64,000 nt of DNA from Macrostomum hystrix (Eukaryota; Animalia; Platyhelminthes). Location: positions 3,472,001-3,536,000 of the forward strand of contig CATNEN010000025.1 of the NCBI GenBank assembly GCA_950097015.1, given 5' to 3'. This document shows, one piece after another, positions 14,871 through 63,895 of the stretch; position 1 is the first letter of the stretch; each line of letters opens with the position of its first letter. A program made the translations under genes and the position numbers. The notes beneath the pieces are model-generated. The model was not told the origin of the DNA and did no database searches. It saw only the letters and a list, made by a program, of their open reading frames with translations.

Positions 14871-17165
14871 TTAAACAAGGCTGGATTCCACAAACTCCAG
14901 GAATCTTCTAGAGTAGATCTCCGGCTTTACAGAGCTGAGCTGCGCCTCGTTGCCGTGCTTCATTGTCTTGTAGGTCTTGGCCGTTCTCTTGCGAACGCCG
15001 TATTTTGTTAGAATGTCGATTAGGCCGATGAAGTACACCAGCTGCGATTGGTCGGCGGCTGGCACAGCGAATCGGCGCTCCCTGGCCGCGGCTGCGGCTG
15101 CGTCTGGAGCGGCGGCGATCGACACACCGATGCCGAGCTCTAACTCGTTGCCGGAGCTGGCCTGATCGTCTAGCTCGGCGCCGTCGCCCTCGGATGCTGC
15201 TGCCGCCGAGCCGCCAGCCGAGGCGCCTCTAGCATCTTCACAGCCGCCGCCAGCAGCCGGATCATGAATGCCAACTAACAGGGAATAGTCCATGAGGTGG
15301 CAGCGAGCCAGGAACTCCGAGTCGCTATGCAGTGTGGCCATCAATCTGGCCTTGGCCTCAGGTCCAACATGAAGTTTCTCACCGGCTCCAACAAAATCAA
15401 CATCCTTCAGAGTTGGCAACTCTTTTGCTTTCTCTTTCTCGGTGGCTTCGCGCGAAATTCTGCTGCCCTTCAAGTCGTATTTGCGATGGATTTTTAAGTC
15501 GGCGCTAAACACGGAACTGCGAGTGCAGACGGGGTGGCGTCCGACCATCAGGATAATGCAAGGTCATTGTCCGCGCTCTCTTTATCTACCTTTCCTATCT
15601 CTCATCCTAGTCCTGCTTTTCTCTCATCATTTCCTTTCTTCCCACTCTACTCTCTCCTCTCCCCACTCTACTCTCTCCTCTCCCCACTCTACTCTCTCCT
15701 CACTCTACTCTCTCCACTCTACTCTCTCCTCTCCCCACTCTACTCTCTCCTCTCCTCACTCTCCTCTCTCCTCTCCCCACTCTACTCTCTTTTCTCCCCA
15801 CTCTACTCTATCCCCTCCCCACTCAACTCTCTCCTCTCCTCTCCCCACTAAACTATCTTCTATCCTCTCACCACTCAACTCTCTCTCCCCACTCAACTCT
15901 CTCCTCTCCCCACTCAACTCTCTCCTCTCCCCACCCAACTCTCTCCTCTCCCCACTCAACTCCCTCCTCTCCCACTCTACTCTATCATCTCCCCACTCTA
16001 CTGTCTAATCTCCAAACTACTGCATCGAGAAATGCCTAACTCACCGCATAACTAGCAGGTAGTGCTCGGTATCTTCCACGGTGGCTCGGTACATGCCAAC
16101 AAACTGCGGCAACAGCGTATCAGCCGAGCGTTCAACAATGTAAGCGTGATAGGCCTGCAGCAGATTGTGCACCTGTTCAACTTCGTCGCTAGATATAGTC
16201 TTAATCACGTAGTGCAGATTGTAAGACCAGATCATGTTCTGCGAGCTGTCCCTAACTGGCTGCCGCTTAGTCCAACTGTCCGCGTAGTGCAAAGCGTCGA
16301 TGCCGAACTTCGAGCGCAATTCTTGAAACACCATTGGACAGTACTCCTTGAATTTGAACTTGCTGGGCATGTTGTCTCTGGTTTAGGGGTGATGGAGATT
16401 GATCATGTCAATTACTTGTGTCTTTTGGGCCGCATTCCAATTTAAACCTATCAGAAGCTCGCACGACTCCATTCAGGCTAATTGATAGCTTCATGCAACC
16501 TCTCCAGCCAATTAGCAGCTCCCTGCCACCACCTCTCCAGCCAATTAGCTTCATGCTTACCATCCAGCCAATTAGCTTCATGCCTACCATCCAGCCAATC
16601 AGCTTCATGCTTGCCATCCAAGCCAATTAGCTTCATGCTTACCATCCAGCCAATCAGCTTCATGCCTACCATCCAGCCAATCAGCTTCATGCTTACCATC
16701 CAGCCAATTAGCTTCATGCTTACTATCCAGCCGCTTAAGCCAATTAGCAGCTTCCTGCCACCTTTCCAGCCAGTCAGTAGTTTCGATTCTATGTCTAGCC
16801 AATCAGAAGCTATCGATCAACAAATCAGTCAATCATTCACTTACTTGTTAAATAAATAATTGTCCACTTTGACTTTTTGGAAGCTTTTAAAATCGTCTGG
16901 CAGCAGCATTGTTCGCTTGGTGACGTGGCTCAGCTGGATTAGCTGGAATTGAATAGTTAAAAGACAACACTATGCAAGGTAGGTCCAAAATTTATTGAAC
17001 TATTTATTTATTGAGTCAATCGATTAACCCCAAAATATTTGTTCAACTCACTGAGTGATTGATGCCCCACATAATGACTGATTTAAGAGGCTCGCTGGAA
17101 CGGAATAGCTTCAGCTTCTGGCGAACACCTTTCACCTTGTGGCTCTTCTTAACCTGCACTTCCAT
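14871..17165 (-). CDS. PIP4K2: Phosphatidylinositol-5-phosphate 4-kinase type II (~396 aa): complement join(17052..17165,16845..16942,16045..16377,14871..15516)
   Basis: Motifs QKLKLFRSSEPLKSVIMWGINHS, LLPDDFKSFQKVKVDNYLFNK, FKFKEYCPMVF, RKYDLKGS, LMDYSLLVGIHD and YFIGLIDILTKY. The activation loop KRTAKTYKTMKHG has Ala where type I enzymes have Glu. All splice sites are GT-AG and in phase. Confidence 0.95.
15640..16010. repeat. ~23-bp pyrimidine-rich minisatellite (ctctactctctcctctcccca), PIP4K intron 3
   Basis: Tandem periodicity; explains ORFs 15442..16008. Confidence 0.9.
16490..16790. repeat. ~27-bp minisatellite (catccagccaatcagcttcatgcttac), PIP4K intron 2
   Basis: Tandem periodicity; each unit contains CCAAT. 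Confidence 0.9.
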
Positions 17166-19220: not shown

Positions 19221-19916
19221 ACCATTTCGGTTCCTAAACATGTAAAATTAGCTTAAATACTGTTCTTAACTGTATTTTTTGTTTAAAATTGACGGAATTC
19301 ATAAAAAGGCTATGAACTAAGTGTCCTGCATTTCAATGCATTTGCTCACAGTCCCAACAGCTGTGCTGGGATTCGCTGATTTGCATGCTCCCCCACCCCA
19401 ATCCCTGCAAACCGGGATTATGAAAGACCAGCGACGCATATAGAAGAGAAAGAGAAGTGAGCAGAGGCGAATAGGCCAGCCAATAGGGGAAGTGGGATTT
19501 CCAATTTACAGTAGGGACCTTTCTCGCTATAATCTCTCTCGCTCTGTGCACCTCTCCCACTTGCCACCGCCACAGCATTGGCTGCAGTCCAAAGCACGCC
19601 AGTGTGGCAAAGCCCTACCTTTGAGCATTTGTCCTCAAGGTAGACAATATTATTAATTGTCAACCGGAGAAAATTTTCCCGAAGGAGCGTCCTGTAGTAG
19701 ATCTTCAACTCCTTCTTCAGTAAATTGTAATATAGGAAGCAAGCTTCCTATATTCCTATAAGGCCGATAATTCCTATAAGGCCGAAGAAGCACTTTAAAG
19801 CAAACAAGAAAGGAATATTCAGAAGAAAGCTTGTTAAACAATCACAGGACAGTGGCATAGGGTGCGCCCTGATTTTAGCCAAATTGCTGGCTGGCTGACA
19901 CGAGTGCTGCTCAGAC

Positions 19917-43016
<23,100 letters not shown>

Positions 43017-44631: not shown

Positions 44632-56444
<11,813 letters not shown>

Positions 56445-58586
56445 CCTTTACTTGGCGACTGCTTCAGTATGCTATTGTGGATAATTTATGATTAGTTTAC
56501 TGGCTTTATAAACTCAGCACTTGTTCAACTAGCAACTACCCTGGCAACCAACCAATCTTAAGCTGCATCCTATCCGGTCCTTATCCGATTCACATCCTCG
56601 ATATAGTACCTTGTAAATCAAATTTTCCAGCATGCGTACTCATGGATGTAGACCGTATAGATAATACGAGCTATAAAAAAGTAAAATACTGCACTTCCTA
56701 AGCATCTATGAAGTTTCCATATTATGAAATTTGTCATATCAAATAAATAGGACTACTGCACGTTCCGTAAATTTAACATTCCATGAATTGCACATCCGTA
56801 AATCTGATTGTCTGATTTTGCATACTTATTCGAGCTATCATGAATATATACATGACCGTGGCTATCTATAATTACAACTTCATAGTCTTCGGGAATAAAA
56901 TATAGATTGCCCGCTTTGAGCGCGTCTGCATCGAAATCCTGAAAAGTTGCGTTAGCAGGTGCCGCGTAAATTTTGTATGACTTTCTAGTGACCATTGCAC
57001 TACGGTTATTAGAAAAACAAGACACTTCGTTTCTGATTTTCTGATCTGTTTTTTTAAAAGGGACTGATTTTCATGAAAAATTGCACTAGCAAGGTAGGAA
57101 ATTTCCTCTTTTTTCTATTACAACACTGGCAGTTTTTTATTGGAGAGATCAAAAGTATTTTGTTTGGTACAACTTGTGCAATTTTGCTTAGTGGTCCTTG
57201 TTAGTGTTAGCGACAATGTTGTAGAGGGCGGATTTCCTCCTAAAAATTTCACAGGTATACTCAGCTGTGGCTTAAAGATATACCAGGCTGAGAATATAAA
57301 GATTTTATTTTGAATTACAGAAGTCATAGACGTTTAAAATACAAAAAATTGATGACAATCTCTTTTAGATGTAAACGTGTAAACGGAATTCGATTATAAC
57401 AAATTGATTGCGCATATTATCCTAAGCTATGACTTTTGGTCAAGAGGTTTGGCTTTTTTAAATAAATAAAGTAGCTATGCCTTTCATTTTCGCCGATTAT
57501 TACCATAGTAAAGTATGTTGCTACAATCAACAGATTGTAATCCTATTGGATTCGACGTGATTGATTTGCAGAAAAAAATAATTTTGATAATTGCATTTCC
57601 AATATTTGGTCTTTTTGTTTGCGTGCCTATTAAATTATATACCGTATAGATTTTCCGTCTCTGTGACTTCAGGTTTTAGACGATGATTTATTCTGAGAGA
57701 TATGTGTTGGAATCATTCTGTTGCCTGTGGAATTCTCTTCCTCTGCAATTGCCTGTTGACAGCTTTGACAGTCAATTCTTTAATTTGATACTGTACCTGT
57801 AGCATAAAGATACATAATATTTACATTAAAAAAGTTTTTTGCTCACTATGGTCTTCGAGAAACCTAGATTTAGACTTTAAGACTTCACAATTTTTAAGAT
57901 TTTTTTGCTTTAAAACATTTAGTCCACAAAGGATGCATTCTGTACAATTATGCCTATGATCTTCTTTAGATTTTTTGCAGAACGATTACATAGCTAGTCC
58001 ATTAATCCAGTTTCCGGTTTACATAAAGCTGAAGATTAAACCAATTTAAGCTTTCCCGTAATTTTTTGAACTTCGTTTACTTTTAGTGTCAATTTATAAA
58101 GCAGCATTTTATCAAATAATTTAAGGATTATTCTTTCATATTTAAAAAAGCTTCAATTTTTTGTGAGGTTTTATATGCCACTGAAGACACCTTCATACCA
58201 CTTTTTGATAAAATAACATAGAGTGTTTTTTTTCAATGTTTTACAATAATGCAGGTATTTATATACATTAATAATACTGTCTGTCATAAATTGTAATAAT
58301 GTGCGCGCAAGAATAAATGGACATAAGGACCACGTAAGGAGCCCTATAAGTGCAAATGCTTGAGCATTCTAGCCTTTGTGACACATTTTTTACTGAAAAA
58401 ATAAATACTTATGTTAACCTTTTTACATTATTAATTTTATGCATATTCAATGAGCTGGGTTCTTACAGAATGGTGCTTAAATAAATGACATGCGTTACCA
58501 ATTGCAGGAATTAAATACAATCAAACAAAATACATTTCAAAAGTCACTCTATAAGACCAGCGCATTCGTAACCGCATAAAACTGCG

Positions 58587-61500
58587 ATGGCGAGAACAAA
58601 GCAGGCGCCCAGAAAAAGTGGAACCAGCAATTTGTTCCCCATTCAGCAGCAGGTGCAGCAGGAGCAGCAGCAGCAGCAGCAGCAGGACTCAGAGGAAGAG
58701 AAAAGCGAAGCTGAGACAGGCTCGGCGACTGCCGAGTCAGAGGCAGAGACCGAGGAGGCGAAGAGTCTGTTCTCTAGCAATACCGAGTCTAAGCGCCCCC
58801 GACGACGCCAAGACGAAGCCGCCGAGGGACCGGAGACTCGGCTGAGCACAAAGAATTCTCAGGCGATTCACAGCGCCTACGATCGGCTGCAGCTCGAGAG
58901 GAACGCTCTAGATGTGAGCAACTATGCTCAGATTTCTATGCATTGAGTATTTTTGTTTACCTCTTAGATTAGACGTTGTGTAGCCTAGTAGTGTAGAGCG
59001 TTAGTATTGCGACTTGAAGGTCGGGGGTTCGATTCCCTCTGCCTCCTCTTCTCTTCCCTCCAGTCCACAGACTGAACAGCTGTCTTCAGATCAACTCAAT
59101 TGCGGGAGGTGTAATCAAAAAATAATTAATTTGTAATTAATTAGACCGCGGTGTTAACCTGTTAGACTCTGTCATAGAGCTAGACAAGATAGTAATTTTA
59201 AATATAAACGTGACTATTTTACTTTCTCTGCTTCCAGGGAAAGTTCGATCAGCTGCTAAAGCAGCGTTCAGAAAAGCAGGTGGTCTGCTGCTCCGATGGA
59301 CCGCGCGAATTCGACCCCACCCTGCCGCTGTGGACCTCACTGTGGACTGACATGACTCTGAGAAATTTCGCCAAGGAATTGGTAAGCGTTAAAAAATACA
59401 TTTTTACCTTTCCATTTTCTTATCGTCTTTATTCTCTTTTCATATTGTCACCGCCGACCCCAAACACCGCAGGTGAAGAAGGACTCGGCGAGCTTCTTCC
59501 AATTGTCCTTCCGCGGCGAAGCCTACATCACCGACCAGGGCATCCGCTGGCTCTGCGACGCATTCGAGAAGGAGCACAAAGATCCAGAAAAGATAAAGGT
59601 TCGACCTCACTTAGTCTTGATGGGCAAGAAGTATTTTTATTTAGAATAATGAGGTCGGGCATTAAGGGGAAAAATTTATGTTTTTAAATTGTCAATTGCA
59701 GAAAATCCAGATGAACGTGGACCTACAGCACTGCCCGGCCATCACAGCCAATGCCGTCGCCCTACTGACTAGAACTTTCTCCAGCGCCTCCGTGGTGAGA
59801 TCCGACCTTGCTAGCAGACTGGACAGCGAGGAGGTGAAGAAGAACAAAGGTAATTGGATTGCTTGCTGCTGCAAAGGTACCCAGGAGATAACTGGTCTCT
59901 TAACTTATTTCTTCAGTTTTATATTTTCTAATGAAACCACGCTCTCCCCTTTTTATCCTCTGCTCTCCTCTTCTCATCCATCGCTTTCCCCTTTCTTTCC
60001 CCCCGCTCTCCCCTTTCTTTTCCACCGCTTTCCCCTTCTCTTCCACCGCTCTCCCCTTTCTTTTCCACCGCTCTTCCCTTCTCTTCCACCGCTCTCCCCT
60101 TCTCATCCACCGCTCTCCCCTTCTCATCCACCGCTCTCCTCTTCTCTTCCACCGCTCTCCCCTTCTCATCCACCGCTCTCCCCTTCTCATCCACCGCTCT
60201 CCCCTTCTCATCCACCGCTCTCCCCTTCTTATCCACCGCTCTCCGCTCTGATTCCCAGATCCACCCCTGACTCTACTCCGCCCACCCTTTTCCAACACAC
60301 TCCCTGCAGAACTGGCCGAGGAGATGGCCGTCAGCAGCTTGCTGTTCGTGTCGCTGCCGGAGGTACAATTCAGCGCGATGTCAGCCGTCAAGGAAGGCAA
60401 GCTGCGGGCAGCCGGCAGTCGGGGAGTCACGGTTGACGACAAATTTATGAAGATTGGCGATGCCGATGTGGTGGCAGCCGAACTCTGCATGTCGGTGCGT
60501 AAAAAACTTTTTTTCTACAGATTCAACTAACGATTGGAGCGGCTTGCTAGACTAGCCTACTAGTAGTAATGTGTAAAGAAACAAAATCGAAAACATTTCC
60601 TTATTTTACCTGTTCAGGCGTACAATTCTCAGTACTTCCCCAGCCAACCGGACCAGGTGGTGATGGTGGTTCTGAACGATTTCGACAGGGCGGTCAGCCA
60701 CATCGTCGAGACTTTGGTCACATTCTTGTCTAGGGTGAGTGAACTGGTCGAGATCCGTGTGGATACGGATGTCAGGAGGATGGGATGAATGTCAAGAGGG
60801 AAATGCAAGAAGTTGGGGATATTGTCAGGAGGTTTGGGAGAATGTCTGGAGGTTGGGTAGGATGTCAGGAGGGTAGAGAGAGTCTGAGGAGGGTAGGGAG
60901 AATCTCAGGAGGGTGAGGAAAATGTCAGGAGTGTAGGGAGAATGTAAGGAGGGTAGGGAGAATGTCAGGAGGTTGGGGAGTATGTCAGGAGGGTAGTGAG
61001 AATGGCAGGAGGGTCGGGTGGATGTAGGAAGGTAGGGAGGATGTCAGGAGGGTAGGAAGAATGTCAGAAGGGTAGGGAGAATGTCAGGAGGGTAGGGAGA
61101 ATCTCAGGAGGGTAGGGAGAACTTCCGGAGGGTAGGGAGAATCTCAGGAGGGTAGGAAGAATGTCAGAAGGGTCGGGAGAATGTCAGGAGGGTAGGAAGA
61201 ATGTCAGAAGGGTCGGGAGAATGTCAGGAGGTAGGAAGAATGTCAGAAGGGTAGGGAGAATGTCAGGAGGTTGGGGAGAATGTCAGGTAGCTGGGAGAAT
61301 AGCAGGAGGGTCGGGTGGATGTAGGAAGGTAGGGAGGATGTCAGGAGGTTGACAAAGACTTCACTTCCCGCAGGCAAATCCAGCTCTTAGGCTGCCAGAG
61401 CCGGCCGTCAAGCGCAGGCTGGCCGCGGTCTCAGACGAGTCGCTGCCTGATCTGCCGGACAAGCCCAGAGTTGCGCGCAGTGGTGGCGCGGAGATCGAGG

Positions 61501-63895
61501 CCAATGAAAAAATTGAGATGCTGAAGGGAAGCGACTATCACCATGTTGGCATGAAGATTAGCAACAACTGGATGTGAGTCTTTGCTGATCGATTCATTTA
61601 CGGAATTGAGTTCGCTTTAGTTGGTTTTAAACACATTTTCTGACGCGGGGAAACAAGGCTCAACCCTCATAATAAAATAATGATTGCAGGAGGGCTGCGG
61701 GCAGTGGCACATCATTTGGCGACACTGGACCCGCAGCGAGGAGGCAATTCTGCCCATTTCGCTGACTCCCGATCACACACGCAAACATATTCTGTACGCA
61801 GGCCCACATTCACACAGGTGTGTACATCTGCCCTGACTTTCTCATCGTCAGGCAGCTAGTGTACACTCTCACTGTGCCTTGGAGGTTGGCCCTCATGGGC
61901 TTAAATTGCACGACAAGCCCACAAGCCTTCTCTCTGCGGCTGCGCCCCAAATGAATGTGGCCTCGCCGTGGAATCGAGCTCGGGGACCTTGGCGCGAGAG
62001 GCAAACGCGTTAGACCTCTCTGCCACTAACCCCCCAACCTCCTGAGCCAATCAAAAAGTTTTGTCAGCGAAGGACTAAATGACCTAAATACATTCCGTTA
62101 ACCCGACCTGCAGTCTACCAATGGAGGACTGCGGCAGCATGTTCGTCAGCAACAAGGCTCTGGACATCGCCAAGCCCAGCTCCGTGTTCTCCGTGGTAGT
62201 CGCCGACTGCTCCGAGTGCACAGTGGGGCTGCTTCGCATGGACCCGATGTGGTTCAATTTTGCCCAGAAGTTTCACAGCTTCGCAGACATCACGGAGCGG
62301 GCGACTGTGAAGCTAGAATTCAGTGATTTTGGCAAGGAGTTGTGAGTATTGAATACCATATGTGGGCAGGGCATTTATTCCTGGAAATGTCACTGATGAA
62401 AATATTCAACGATCGCTACCTTCGAGATGTAAACTCAGAAAATGAAATTACATTTTTTGTGTAACACTAACTGTATGTACTTTAATAGATTCACTCTCAA
62501 TAAATAAGTATTAAATGTTGCATCTCCACTGATTCAATGTGCTCTCAATATGCAGGCTTGATGAGTGTAACTTCAATATTTTCAATAACTTTATATCGCT
62601 GAATATCCTGACGATGCTTTGAAAGTTAGTTAGTTCATCGTAAACGTCAGAAAATTTTCATCCAAATTTTGGACCGTCAAGAAAGTCGGTCATTTGGTTT
62701 GGGAGCTGTCGTGAGGTAGGCAGTGGGTATTTTTAATACCTCTCCAGTGTCCTTCCCACGGGCAATAGCCTGGTCTTTCTGCTGCTATTGTGCACTGATT
62801 TCACTGAGTCCCACCAACCAATCGCATCGCAGCAAGCTCAGCTGCGTTAAGGACGACGGCAAGCTGGCGACGCCAGCCACGTGGAGAACGGCCGCATTCG
62901 CTTCGGACACGGACCAGTTTGTGGTGTCCATCGAGGTGCGCAAAGCCGCACTCAGCAACGAGTCGAACATGGTGCACATCCTCCTGAACAACACGACGGT
63001 GCATCAGTTCATCGTGAAATCGACCGCTCTGTCGCGCGGCGGCCAGCAGCAGAAGAGCGGCGAAGTGACGCAGACGGTGCACGAAGGCATCTTCGGTTAC
63101 GTCAGCTGCCCCAAAGGCAAAGCCGGCCGGTCAGCCTTCTACCCGCTGGCCGAGGCCGACAGTCCGATCTACAAGACGTCTGGCTCAAGCGCGCCAGCTG
63201 CGACCAAACCGAAAAAGGACGAAGCTGAAGCCGCTACGAGCGCTGACAGCGATCTGGCGGTTGGAACCCCGCTGCACACGCCGCCGTTTCGCGTCCTCTG
63301 CCACCGGATGTTGCAGGCGGCGTCGGGTTCAACAGTTGGCCGAGTTCGCGAGGCAGTTTCGGCCGAGTTAAAGCGTGTTCGCGACCGCCTCGATGCGGAG
63401 GCCAAGAAGCTGACGAATGCAATCGAGAAGGCCGGCGACGGAGTATTTCTGCAGCAGCTGCGCTGGGCGGAGCTCACCGCCACCGCTGAGCGAATCGAAG
63501 CCTATTTGAAGACTCGACTCGGCGACGACCTGGAAGTGTTCGGCACCGACCAGCTGGCTGAGCTGCGCGCCGCATTGGCGGCCACTTCGCAGGCGGCAGT
63601 TGAAGCCCTGCTGCCTGACCGTCTCTGGCGTATTCGGCAAGTCAAGGAGGCGCTGAAGGTAGCCACCGAGGAGGCCGAGAAGAAGGGCCGAATCCGAGCA
63701 TTGGACTGCCTGGCTGAGGCAGACAAAAAGTACGGCCGATTGCAGCTTGTCGAAGCGTTACAGTGGCTGCACGAGAGAGTGAGTCCTCGGACCTTGGAGA
63801 CCATGCAAGGCGGTGGTCAACTTCGTAGCGAATTCGAACTCGGGAGGTTTTTAGCCTTCATAAATGGCACATACCTTAACCAGCACAAGCCATAG
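58587..63895 (+). CDS. Uncharacterised ~845-aa protein: H3-tail-like N-terminus, polyQ/acidic linker, LRR region, degenerate Roc/COR-like region, helical C-terminus: join(58587..58913,59238..59381,59473..59598,59702..59849,60310..60494,60618..60734,61374..61573,62114..62341,62833..63895)
   Basis: Nine GC-rich exons with GT-AG sites and matching phases (0,0,0,1,0,0,2,2) give one open frame of 2538 nt. LRR-like segments: LSFRGEAYITDQGIRWL and VDLQHCPAITANAVALL. The domain labels are from motif reading only. Confidence 0.85.
58974..59130 (+). mobile_element. SINE family A, centrally deleted copy
   Basis: Head gcgacttgaaggtcgggggttcgattcc joined almost directly to cagtccacagactgaacagctg. Confidence 0.75.
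59940..60260. repeat. 21-bp pyrimidine-rich minisatellite (ttctcatccaccgctctcccc)
   Basis: Tandem periodicity in intron 4 of the 58587 gene. Confidence 0.92.
60770..61350. repeat. 20-bp purine-rich minisatellite (gagaatgtcaggagggtagg)
   Basis: Tandem periodicity in intron 6 of the 58587 gene. Confidence 0.92.
61668..62035 (-). mobile_element. SINE family B, near full length
   Basis: tRNA-like head and shared body and tail; matches 38640..38978. Confidence 0.88.

What the first reader, a model, noticed from the sequence alone, without database searches (positions are those of the whole stretch)
58587..58625. Histone H3 N-terminal tail mimic on a non-histone LRR protein
Seen: the gene starts M-ARTKQAPRKS-GTS, versus H3 ARTKQTARKS-TGG (8 of the first 10 residues identical). 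R2, T3, K4, Q5, R8, K9 and S10 are kept at the same register, followed by polyQ, an acidic linker, a KRPRRR NLS-like motif and LRRs, with no histone fold. It can also be read as H3 1-5 fused to H3 15-18 (APRK). Established: Met removal before Ala leaves the free ARTK amine read by PHD fingers, and K4/K9/S10 are substrates of SET methyltransferases and Aurora B; histone mimicry is known for influenza NS1 and G9a. Inference: the protein may be a decoy or reader bait, or may be switched by chromatin-modifying enzymes, coupling them to an LRR/Roco-like scaffold.
Basis: partly seen in the sequence, partly recalled or inferred. Interest (0 to 1): 0.85.

Follow-up and report, generated by a model that had tools for sequence, protein, structure and literature searches.

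The report
H3-tail mimic on flatworm Roco-like protein
A spliced, expressed flatworm gene encodes a large non-histone protein whose predicted first ten residues match the histone H3 tail at eight positions, and this tail likely serves as bait for proteins that normally grip the tip of H3, although its conservation in relatives and its binding are untested.

Summary
The motif is real. ATG 58587 gives M-ARTKQAPRKS, 8 of 10 identical to H3 residues 1-10; chance is about 1e-3 per 30,000 genes, or 0.07 under a basic-tail composition. Contigs from three runs confirm all 8 introns. One contig carries the Macrostomum spliced leader joined at 58507/58508, and 58587 is the first in-frame ATG after it, so the tail is very likely the true N-terminus. 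The gene runs past the window. The body is a narrow family seen mainly in Macrostomum, with two LRR-like repeats, no P-loop, and a COR-like fold in a distant homologue: probably a nucleotide-dead Roco-like scaffold. The tail meets the published H3 N-terminal mimic (H3TM) definition. Its two departures from H3 (A6, P7) break the ARK site used by G9a but create an RxKxxPxK pattern close to RBBP4/NuRD ligands, so reading of the free A1-K4 tip is more plausible than a K9 switch. The key test is missing: every M. lignano orthologue model lacks its N-terminus, and two paralogue-group sequences show no tail. The scan noted a similar H3 tail on a Naegleria LRR/ankyrin family (unchecked). Verdict: new variant of a known kind; function about 50% likely.

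The parts
58506..58507 (+). Trans-splice acceptor AG; the spliced leader is joined to 58508
   Evidence: A contig of run X4 has a 24-nt loose 5' end here that, with the shared G, equals the 3' 25 nt of the 35-nt M. lignano SL printed in PMC8629364. One contig in 1 of the 6 runs laid.
58508..58586 (+). 79-nt 5' UTR without ATG; the SL's terminal AUG opens an out-of-frame uORF (24 aa; 11 aa in an allele) that stops before the main ATG
   Evidence: the alleles at 58538 and 58569 are seen in X4 and X1
58587..58619 (+). H3-like N-terminal tail M-ARTKQAPRKS (8/10 identical to H3 1-10; RxKxxPxK pattern)
   Evidence: covered by contigs of X1, X3 and X4 with no difference listed inside it
58644..58685 (+). 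PolyQ tract (aa 20-33); contigs show 3 gap letters in exon 1, probably a length variant here (inferred)
58686..58760 (+). Acidic low-complexity linker (aa 34-58)
   Evidence: Net charge -8 over aa 36-62
58791..58808 (+). KRPRRR, NLS-like basic cluster (aa 69-74); the M. lignano orthologue has RPNRRRR here
58587..58913 (+). Coding exon 1 (aa 1-109)
   Evidence: GT-AG joint 58913/59238 in X3, X4 and X5
59238..59381 (+). Exon 2 (aa 110-157), conserved WTSLWTD helix region
59473..59849 (+). Exons 3 (59473-59598) and 4 (59702-59849): two degenerate LRR-like repeats (aa 158-240)
   Evidence: Joints; pattern; Atlas leads for homologue P0017 are in the LRR clan with scores 0.84-0.86, lead only
60310..60734 (+). 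Exons 5 (60310-60494) and 6 (60618-60734): well-conserved block where a ROC domain would lie; no GxxxxGK[ST]; pseudo-ROC reading is inferred
   Evidence: 51/94 identical to P0008 over aa 255-349; no P-loop in 13 of 13 family sequences
61374..62341 (+). Exons 7 (61374-61573) and 8 (62114-62341): linker and start of a region of unknown fold
   Evidence: no family hit
62833..63778 (+). Exon 9: beta-rich part, long helices, ending in WLHER(G), a COR-A-like motif (resemblance recalled); the gene continues beyond the window
   Evidence: orthologue models continue with a COR-like part and a Cys-rich part, and an overlapping model with SPRY

Best explanation
This expressed, SL trans-spliced Macrostomum gene encodes a large non-histone, probably nucleotide-dead Roco-like scaffold whose N-terminus is an H3-tail mimic that likely docks on readers of the free H3 tip. 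Shown: the transcript structure, the first in-frame ATG, and the 8/10 match. Inferred chain: (1) Met is removed before Ala, exposing ARTKQ on a long low-complexity arm. (2) KRPRRR brings the protein into the nucleus. (3) The unmodified tail binds acidic pockets that take H3 1-4, most plausibly RBBP4/7 (NuRD) or H3K4me0-type PHD fingers such as that of UHRF1. The two departures from H3 give RxKxxPxK, between the RxKxxxPxK and RKxxPxK RBBP4 ligands. (4) K4 methylation or T3 phosphorylation would switch partners. (5) The LRR/COR-like body, with SPRY in the orthologue, would act as adaptor or sponge for the captured complex. A K9-methyl/HP1 switch is less likely because ARK is replaced by PRK.
For: Start: SL joined at 58507/58508; no ATG in the 79-nt UTR and an in-frame stop upstream in both alleles; 8 of 8 introns confirmed in 3 runs of one study. 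Non-chance match. Meets the H3TM pattern M-Z-R-X-K. Looser human H3TM peptides bind PHD/Tudor domains when K4-trimethylated, and BCL11B, TSHZ1 and H3 peptides bind NuRD when unmethylated (PMC8166343). The tail matches the TSHZ1 N-terminus at 7 positions with one gap. PAF15 VRTK binds the UHRF1 PHD at 2.2 uM, like H3 ARTK (PMC7060239). RBBP4 motifs tolerate an RxK spacing (PMC11602157). The NLS-like cluster is kept in the orthologue. The COR-like fold of distant homologue P0010 ranks 2-3 of 48,161 chains (Z 8.6 and 8.2, rmsd 2.2-2.4 over 86 residues).
Against: No conservation evidence. M. lignano orthologue models P0001-P0007 and P0011 all start downstream of the tail. The two homologues that reach the exon-1 region, both from a paralogue group at 34-36% identity, show no significant H3 match (P0008 4 identities, 3603/5000 shuffles as good; P0017 3 identities, 4978/5000), although either may be cut at its start. 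Aa 1-97 are the least conserved part of the family. With a basic-rich background the genome-wide chance is 0.07, and this motif was picked from a very large scan. No published RBBP4 consensus is matched exactly, and the RBBP4 reading is post hoc. The SL evidence is a single contig. The H3TM authors found no K4me3 in vivo. The COR match is tied with an unrelated protein (YajQ, Z 8.8), comes from a low-confidence model (mean pLDDT 39.8), and concerns a homologue rather than this protein.
Confidence: 0.48

Rival explanations
1. The tail is an unselected, species-specific basic N-terminus (or just a nuclear/nucleolar or acidic-patch-binding stretch) in a fast-evolving exon, and the H3 likeness is a tail-end coincidence.
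For: Exon 1 is low-complexity and diverges fast; the paralogue-group N-termini differ from each other and from this one. Expected 0.07 per 30,000 genes under a basic-rich composition, and the scan reads many genomes. Identity stops dead after residue 10.
Against: With realistic composition the expectation is 4e-4 to 9e-4 per genome. The match sits exactly at residue 1 after Met, where readers need it, and both registers (H3 1-10; H3 1-5 plus 15-18) fit.
Confidence: 0.27
2. The 5' end of a histone H3 gene (with an internal deletion of codons 6-14, or two substitutions) was captured as a new start for the orthologue lineage and is a decaying relic, not a selected ligand.
For: ARTKQ+APRK equals H3 1-5 plus 15-18, 9 of 9. 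The paralogue group lacks the tail, compatible with a gain in one lineage.
Against: No H3 gene lies in the window (six-frame motif scan).
Confidence: 0.13
3. One reading: the tail is a multi-mark switch in which K9 methylation and S10 phosphorylation (G9a/SUV39, HP1, Aurora B) matter as much as K4.
For: R8-K9-S10 is kept in register. The Arg next to the Lys is what G9a needs most. RxS fits the Aurora B preference (recalled).
Against: T6A and A7P fall inside the G9a minimal site TARKSTG and remove ARK. Chromodomains bury A7 (recalled). T11 and G12 are lost.
Confidence: 0.12

Closest known systems
H3 N-terminal mimicry proteins (H3TMs: VRK1, BCL11B, TSHZ1, HIVEP1, PCLAF and others; PMC8166343, abstract, introduction, part of the methods and sections 12, 14, 17 read)
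   Same: M-small-R-x-K at the true N-terminus of a non-histone protein, on a low-complexity arm; 7 identities with one gap to the TSHZ1 peptide.
   Different: Far closer to H3 than the 7 peptides printed there (exact ARTKQ, plus RKS). The host protein is a Roco-like scaffold rather than a transcription factor or kinase. Binding is untested.
PAF15/PCLAF (PMC7060239, passages read)
   Same: N-terminal xRTK read like H3 ARTK by the UHRF1 PHD finger.
   Different: PAF15 is PCNA-associated and ubiquitylated by UHRF1. No PIP-box pattern was found in the 807 aa here.
RBBP4/NuRD interaction motifs (RRKQxxP; RK(x)xxPxK/R; RxKxxxPxK of BMRF1; RxKxxxxxK of PRDM3/16; PMC11602157, passages read)
   Same: R, K, Q, P and a final K in the same order (RxKQxPxK).
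   Different: Matches none of the published spacings exactly: T instead of R before K4, and one residue shorter than the BMRF1 form.
Group-1 Roco proteins (LRR-Roc-COR; MFHAS1, C. tepidum Roco; PMC6337361, passages read)
   Same: Order of LRR-like repeats, a ROC-sized alpha/beta block (inferred) and a COR-like region; CtRoco COR is a top structural match for homologue P0010.
   Different: No P-loop; only about two repeats; a roughly 290-aa extra region; a Cys-rich region and SPRY follow in M. lignano models; no sequence-level Roc or COR hit.
G9a ARKT and influenza NS1 ARSK mimics (as described in PMC8166343 introduction)
   Same: Short H3-like motif on a non-histone protein.
   Different: Those motifs are internal or C-terminal and 4 residues long; this one is N-terminal and 10 residues long, with the ARK site broken.

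Membership tests
H3 N-terminal mimicry proteins (H3TM) | iMet-small-R-x-K pattern | tested here: met
   MARTK (definition)
H3 N-terminal mimicry proteins (H3TM) | Motif lies at the real N-terminus | tested here: met
   SL-joined contig and first in-frame ATG; transcript-level evidence from one contig, no protein-level data
H3 N-terminal mimicry proteins (H3TM) | Not a histone (no histone fold) | tested here: met
   No histone hit in Pfam or PDB; an 807-aa open spliced frame
H3 N-terminal mimicry proteins (H3TM) | Met removed, free amine, and binding to PHD/Tudor/NuRD | not testable with these tools
   Ala after Met is permissive by the rule quoted; needs MS and pull-downs
Selected histone mimic | Motif conserved in orthologues | tested here: inconclusive
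   Orthologue models are N-truncated; two paralogue-group sequences show no significant match
NuRD interaction motif (N-terminal NIM / iNIM) | RRKQxxP or RK(x)xxPxK/R consensus | tested here: not met
   Neither pattern matches; only KxxPxK with R shifted by one
G9a/HP1-type H3K9 mimic | ARK(S/T) site | tested here: not met
   PRKS; RK kept, ARK absent
Roco proteins | Roc GTPase with G1 P-loop GxxxxGK[ST] | tested here: not met
   0 of 13 family sequences carry it; many are fragments, but the model, P0004, P0008 and P0017 span the expected place
Roco proteins | COR domain | tested here: inconclusive
   Homologue P0010 model aa 132-237 matches CtRoco COR (3dpu Z 8.6, 3dpt Z 8.2, 8r4b Z 6.5; LRRK2 9ci3 Z 5.8), tied with YajQ Z 8.8; no Pfam COR hit; most of the region lies outside the window
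Roco proteins (group 1) | N-terminal LRR domain | tested here: inconclusive
   One LRR_CC-like pattern; Atlas leads in the LRR clan at 0.84-0.86, under the 0.9 bar; no Pfam hit

The most novel reading that the evidence does not exclude
Macrostomum evolved a GTPase-dead Roco/SPRY scaffold with a selected hybrid tail: exact H3 1-5 for PHD/Haspin-type readers and writers, plus a KxxPxK RBBP4 grip. It would act as an endogenous, K4- or T3-switchable decoy or adaptor that captures NuRD or other RBBP4/7 complexes, an animal-lineage invention of near-complete histone-tail mimicry on an immune-receptor-like protein. If the unchecked Naegleria LRR/ankyrin case holds, it would be a convergent theme.
Probability: 0.22. 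Interest if true: 0.8.

Novelty: new variant of a known kind. Interest (0 to 1): 0.5.

Why it matters
Known endogenous N-terminal H3 mimics in animals share 3-4 residues with H3 and sit on chromatin factors. A 10-residue near-copy on a Roco-like signalling scaffold would link a family known for GTPase/kinase signalling and innate sensing to histone readers, in a genus used for stem-cell and regeneration work where RNAi and transgenesis exist (recalled). It gives a cheap, sharp test (one peptide, one orthologue alignment), and such a protein could cross-react with anti-H3K4/S10 antibodies used in these worms (inference). If orthologues lack the tail, it is only a curiosity.

Tried and rejected
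No genome is held for the window, so paralogues and H3 genes of this species could not be searched. No run was on record as RNA; spliced contigs were used instead. Three word-based homologue searches (each scored only about 7,990 best candidates) and one HMMER scan of 1.84 billion representatives (9 hits, 7 M. lignano models, 1 Logan, 1 ENA) found no full-length orthologue and nothing named outside Macrostomum. Both metagenome scans found no relative (0 of 296 and 0 of 78 pattern matches). The 'M-RKSIG' start of P0008 looked like H3 8-12 in register but is not significant (3603/5000 shuffles), so it was dropped as evidence. Exon-9 fold: pLDDT 40.2; Foldseek gave no hit at E<=0.001 and VIA gave only generic helical hairpins. 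Foldseek on the P0010 model gave no hit at E<=0.001 (top rows H-NOX). PDB sequence searches, NCBIfam, plasmid tblastn and the Atlas on P0004 gave nothing useful. My idea that the beta-rich insert is SPRY-like got no support (P0011 vs P0009 BLASTP best E 3.8). UniRef names of the homologues (COR, SHR-BD, calpain, SWIB, helicase, Rad60, exostosin) contradict each other and were not used as evidence. No complex prediction was sent: no eukaryotic reader was available as a reference, and a pass would only echo solved H3 complexes. Literature searches listed no paper on this gene; two searches showed only 20 of 195 and 20 of 201 papers, so absence from print is not established. No supplements were read.

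Full report
Observation. The + strand from 58587 reads MARTKQAPRKSGTSNLFPI. Against H3 1-18 as printed in PMC8166343, 8 of the first 10 residues after Met are identical in register and none of residues 11-18 match; the first nine also equal H3 1-5 plus 15-18. The chance of at least 8/10 at this register is 3e-8 per protein with the protein's own composition (9e-4 per 30,000 genes), 4e-4 per 30,000 with the composition of the M. lignano homologues, and 0.07 with a pessimistic basic-rich composition. 0 of 5000 shuffles of the first 40 residues reach 8 identities. No histone family is hit, and ARTK/ARTKQ occurs nowhere else in the window's six frames.

The gene and its start. A nine-exon model gives an open frame of 807 aa. 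All 8 GT-AG joints appear in contigs of each of three runs (X3, X4, X5; one study; not on record as RNA, but spliced); the fourth run laid, X1, showed no joint. One X4 contig begins with 24 letters that lie on nothing in the window and is joined at the AG 58506-58507. These letters plus the shared G equal the 3' end of the 35-nt M. lignano spliced leader (PMC8629364, passages); SL trans-splicing is also reported for two other Macrostomum species (PMC10468722, passages). The 79-nt UTR has no ATG, an in-frame stop lies upstream in both alleles seen, and the SL's own AUG opens only an out-of-frame uORF of 24 or 11 aa. Contigs of 3 of the 6 runs laid (X1, X3, X4) cover the motif with no difference listed in it; they are 98-100% alike, so this is not a conservation test. 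The gene continues beyond the window: a 3270-nt X5 contig leaves the window sequence at the exon-9 donor after its base 2353.

Relatives. The organism is a Macrostomum-type flatworm (SL; all named homologues are M. lignano); the species was not determined. Three word-based searches and one HMMER scan of 1.84 billion representatives returned only this small family. It comprises M. lignano orthologue models P0001-P0007 and P0011 (48-55% BLAST identity overall for P0001-P0004, with apparent frameshifts), a paralogue group (P0008, P0009, P0012, P0017, P0018; 27-36% where measured), and one distant unnamed protein (P0010). The orthologue model reaching furthest upstream (P0004) begins at the equivalent of aa 59, so the tail cannot be checked. 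The two paralogue-group sequences that reach the exon-1 region have no significant H3 match (P0008: 4 identities, 3603/5000 shuffles as good; P0017: 3 identities, 4978/5000); either may be cut at its start. This is the main gap, and as far as it goes it speaks against family-wide conservation.

The body. Aa 158-240 hold two degenerate repeats (ITDQGI..., VDLQHCPAIT...) of the cysteine-containing LRR type (pattern). Pfam does not call them, while the Atlas leads for P0017 are all in the LRR clan but under 0.9. Aa 255-349 are well conserved (51/94 with P0008) and lie where a Roc domain would sit; their likeness to Roc is from recall, and no GxxxxGK[ST] is found in 13 of 13 sequences. Exon 9 ends in WLHER, continued as WLHERG/WLHQRG in homologues, which recalls the COR-A motif. 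A low-confidence model of P0010 (mean pLDDT 39.8, about 60 in aa 160-220) matches the C. tepidum Roco COR domain at ranks 2-3 of 48,161 chains (Z 8.6 and 8.2, rmsd 2.2-2.4 over 86 residues), tied with YajQ (Z 8.8); Foldseek found nothing significant. COR was my hypothesis before that search, which adds weight, but it is not proof. An M. lignano model overlapping the orthologue's C-terminus continues through a Cys-rich region into SPRY (PF00622, E 0.004, below the curated cut-off). Best reading: a Roco-like scaffold that has lost nucleotide binding. By the family definition (PMC6337361, passages) it fails the G1 test and should not be filed as a Roco GTPase.

How the tail most likely works (inferred). 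It meets the H3TM definition M-Z-R-X-K, which 48 human proteins meet at their N-termini (PMC8166343). Such peptides bind PHD/Tudor domains when K4-trimethylated, and some bind NuRD when unmethylated, in vitro; the authors found no K4me3 in vivo. PAF15 is a proven case: VRTK binds the UHRF1 PHD like ARTK (PMC7060239, passages). The two residues that differ from H3 are informative. They remove the ARK of the G9a site (PMC8541646, passage) and produce RxKxxPxK, which has 7 identities with one gap to the NuRD-binding TSHZ1 peptide and lies between the RK(x)xxPxK/R and RxKxxxPxK RBBP4 ligands (PMC11602157, passages) without matching either exactly. H3, FOG-1 and PHF6 share one RBBP4 surface (bioRxiv 10.1101/303537, search listing only). 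I therefore favour a tip-reading mechanism (RBBP4/7 or K4me0 PHDs, switchable at T3/K4) over a K9 switch. Haspin/Survivin reading of ARTK and chromodomain need for A7 are recalled; one search gave only a listing.

Rivals. (a) Coincidence in a fast-evolving basic N-terminus (0.27): cannot be excluded without orthologues. (b) Relic of a captured H3 5' end (0.13): fits the 9/9 deleted reading, but the tail's codons (GC3 0.50 against 0.74) do not look like a fresh copy; only 12 codons, and no host H3 DNA was available. (c) Full K4/K9/S10 switch (0.12): weakened by P7.

Novelty and verdict. N-terminal H3 mimicry is a known class; the new points are the closeness of the match and the host protein. 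Searches listed no paper on this gene or on such a tail on a Roco-like protein, but two of them showed only 20 of about 200 papers, and no supplements were read. Earlier notes of this scan describe an H3 tail on a Naegleria LRR/ankyrin family and histone-tail copies in fungal loops; I did not test them, and no note concerned this sequence. New variant of a known kind; interest 0.5, rising to about 0.8 if orthologues keep the tail and it binds.

Noticed in passing
window 58508-58586 (+): The spliced leader ends in AUG and opens an out-of-frame uORF of 24 aa (11 aa in the allele with a stop at 58538, seen in X4 and X1) that ends before the main ATG; possible translational control by leaky scanning or reinitiation.
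   Followed up: partly
window ~58975-59045 (+), intron 1: tRNA-like A/B-box fragment, probably a SINE; contig depth 95-224 in this bin against about 10 on exons. No tRNA by ARAGORN; only a weak 18-nt T-arm-like Rfam match.
   Followed up: partly
window ~61680-62020, intron 7: High-copy transcribed repeat (contig depth 1,900-4,000 in three runs); a similar stretch appears at ~53146-53470 on the - strand (shared translated words).
   Followed up: no
window 49862-56447 (-): Divergent neighbour about 2 kb upstream: ankyrin repeats (Pfam) followed by channel-like exons; looks like a TRPV-type channel (recalled resemblance).
   Followed up: partly
window 19899-21026 (-) and 14871-15563 (-): Exons resembling a Shal/Kv4 potassium channel and a PIP4K/PIP5K-type kinase (by eye).
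   Followed up: no
proteins P0008, P0009, P0012, P0017, P0018, P0010: An unannotated paralogue group and one distant unnamed relative share the LRR-like, P-loop-less and COR-like parts; their UniRef names contradict each other. The family itself appears undescribed.
   Followed up: partly
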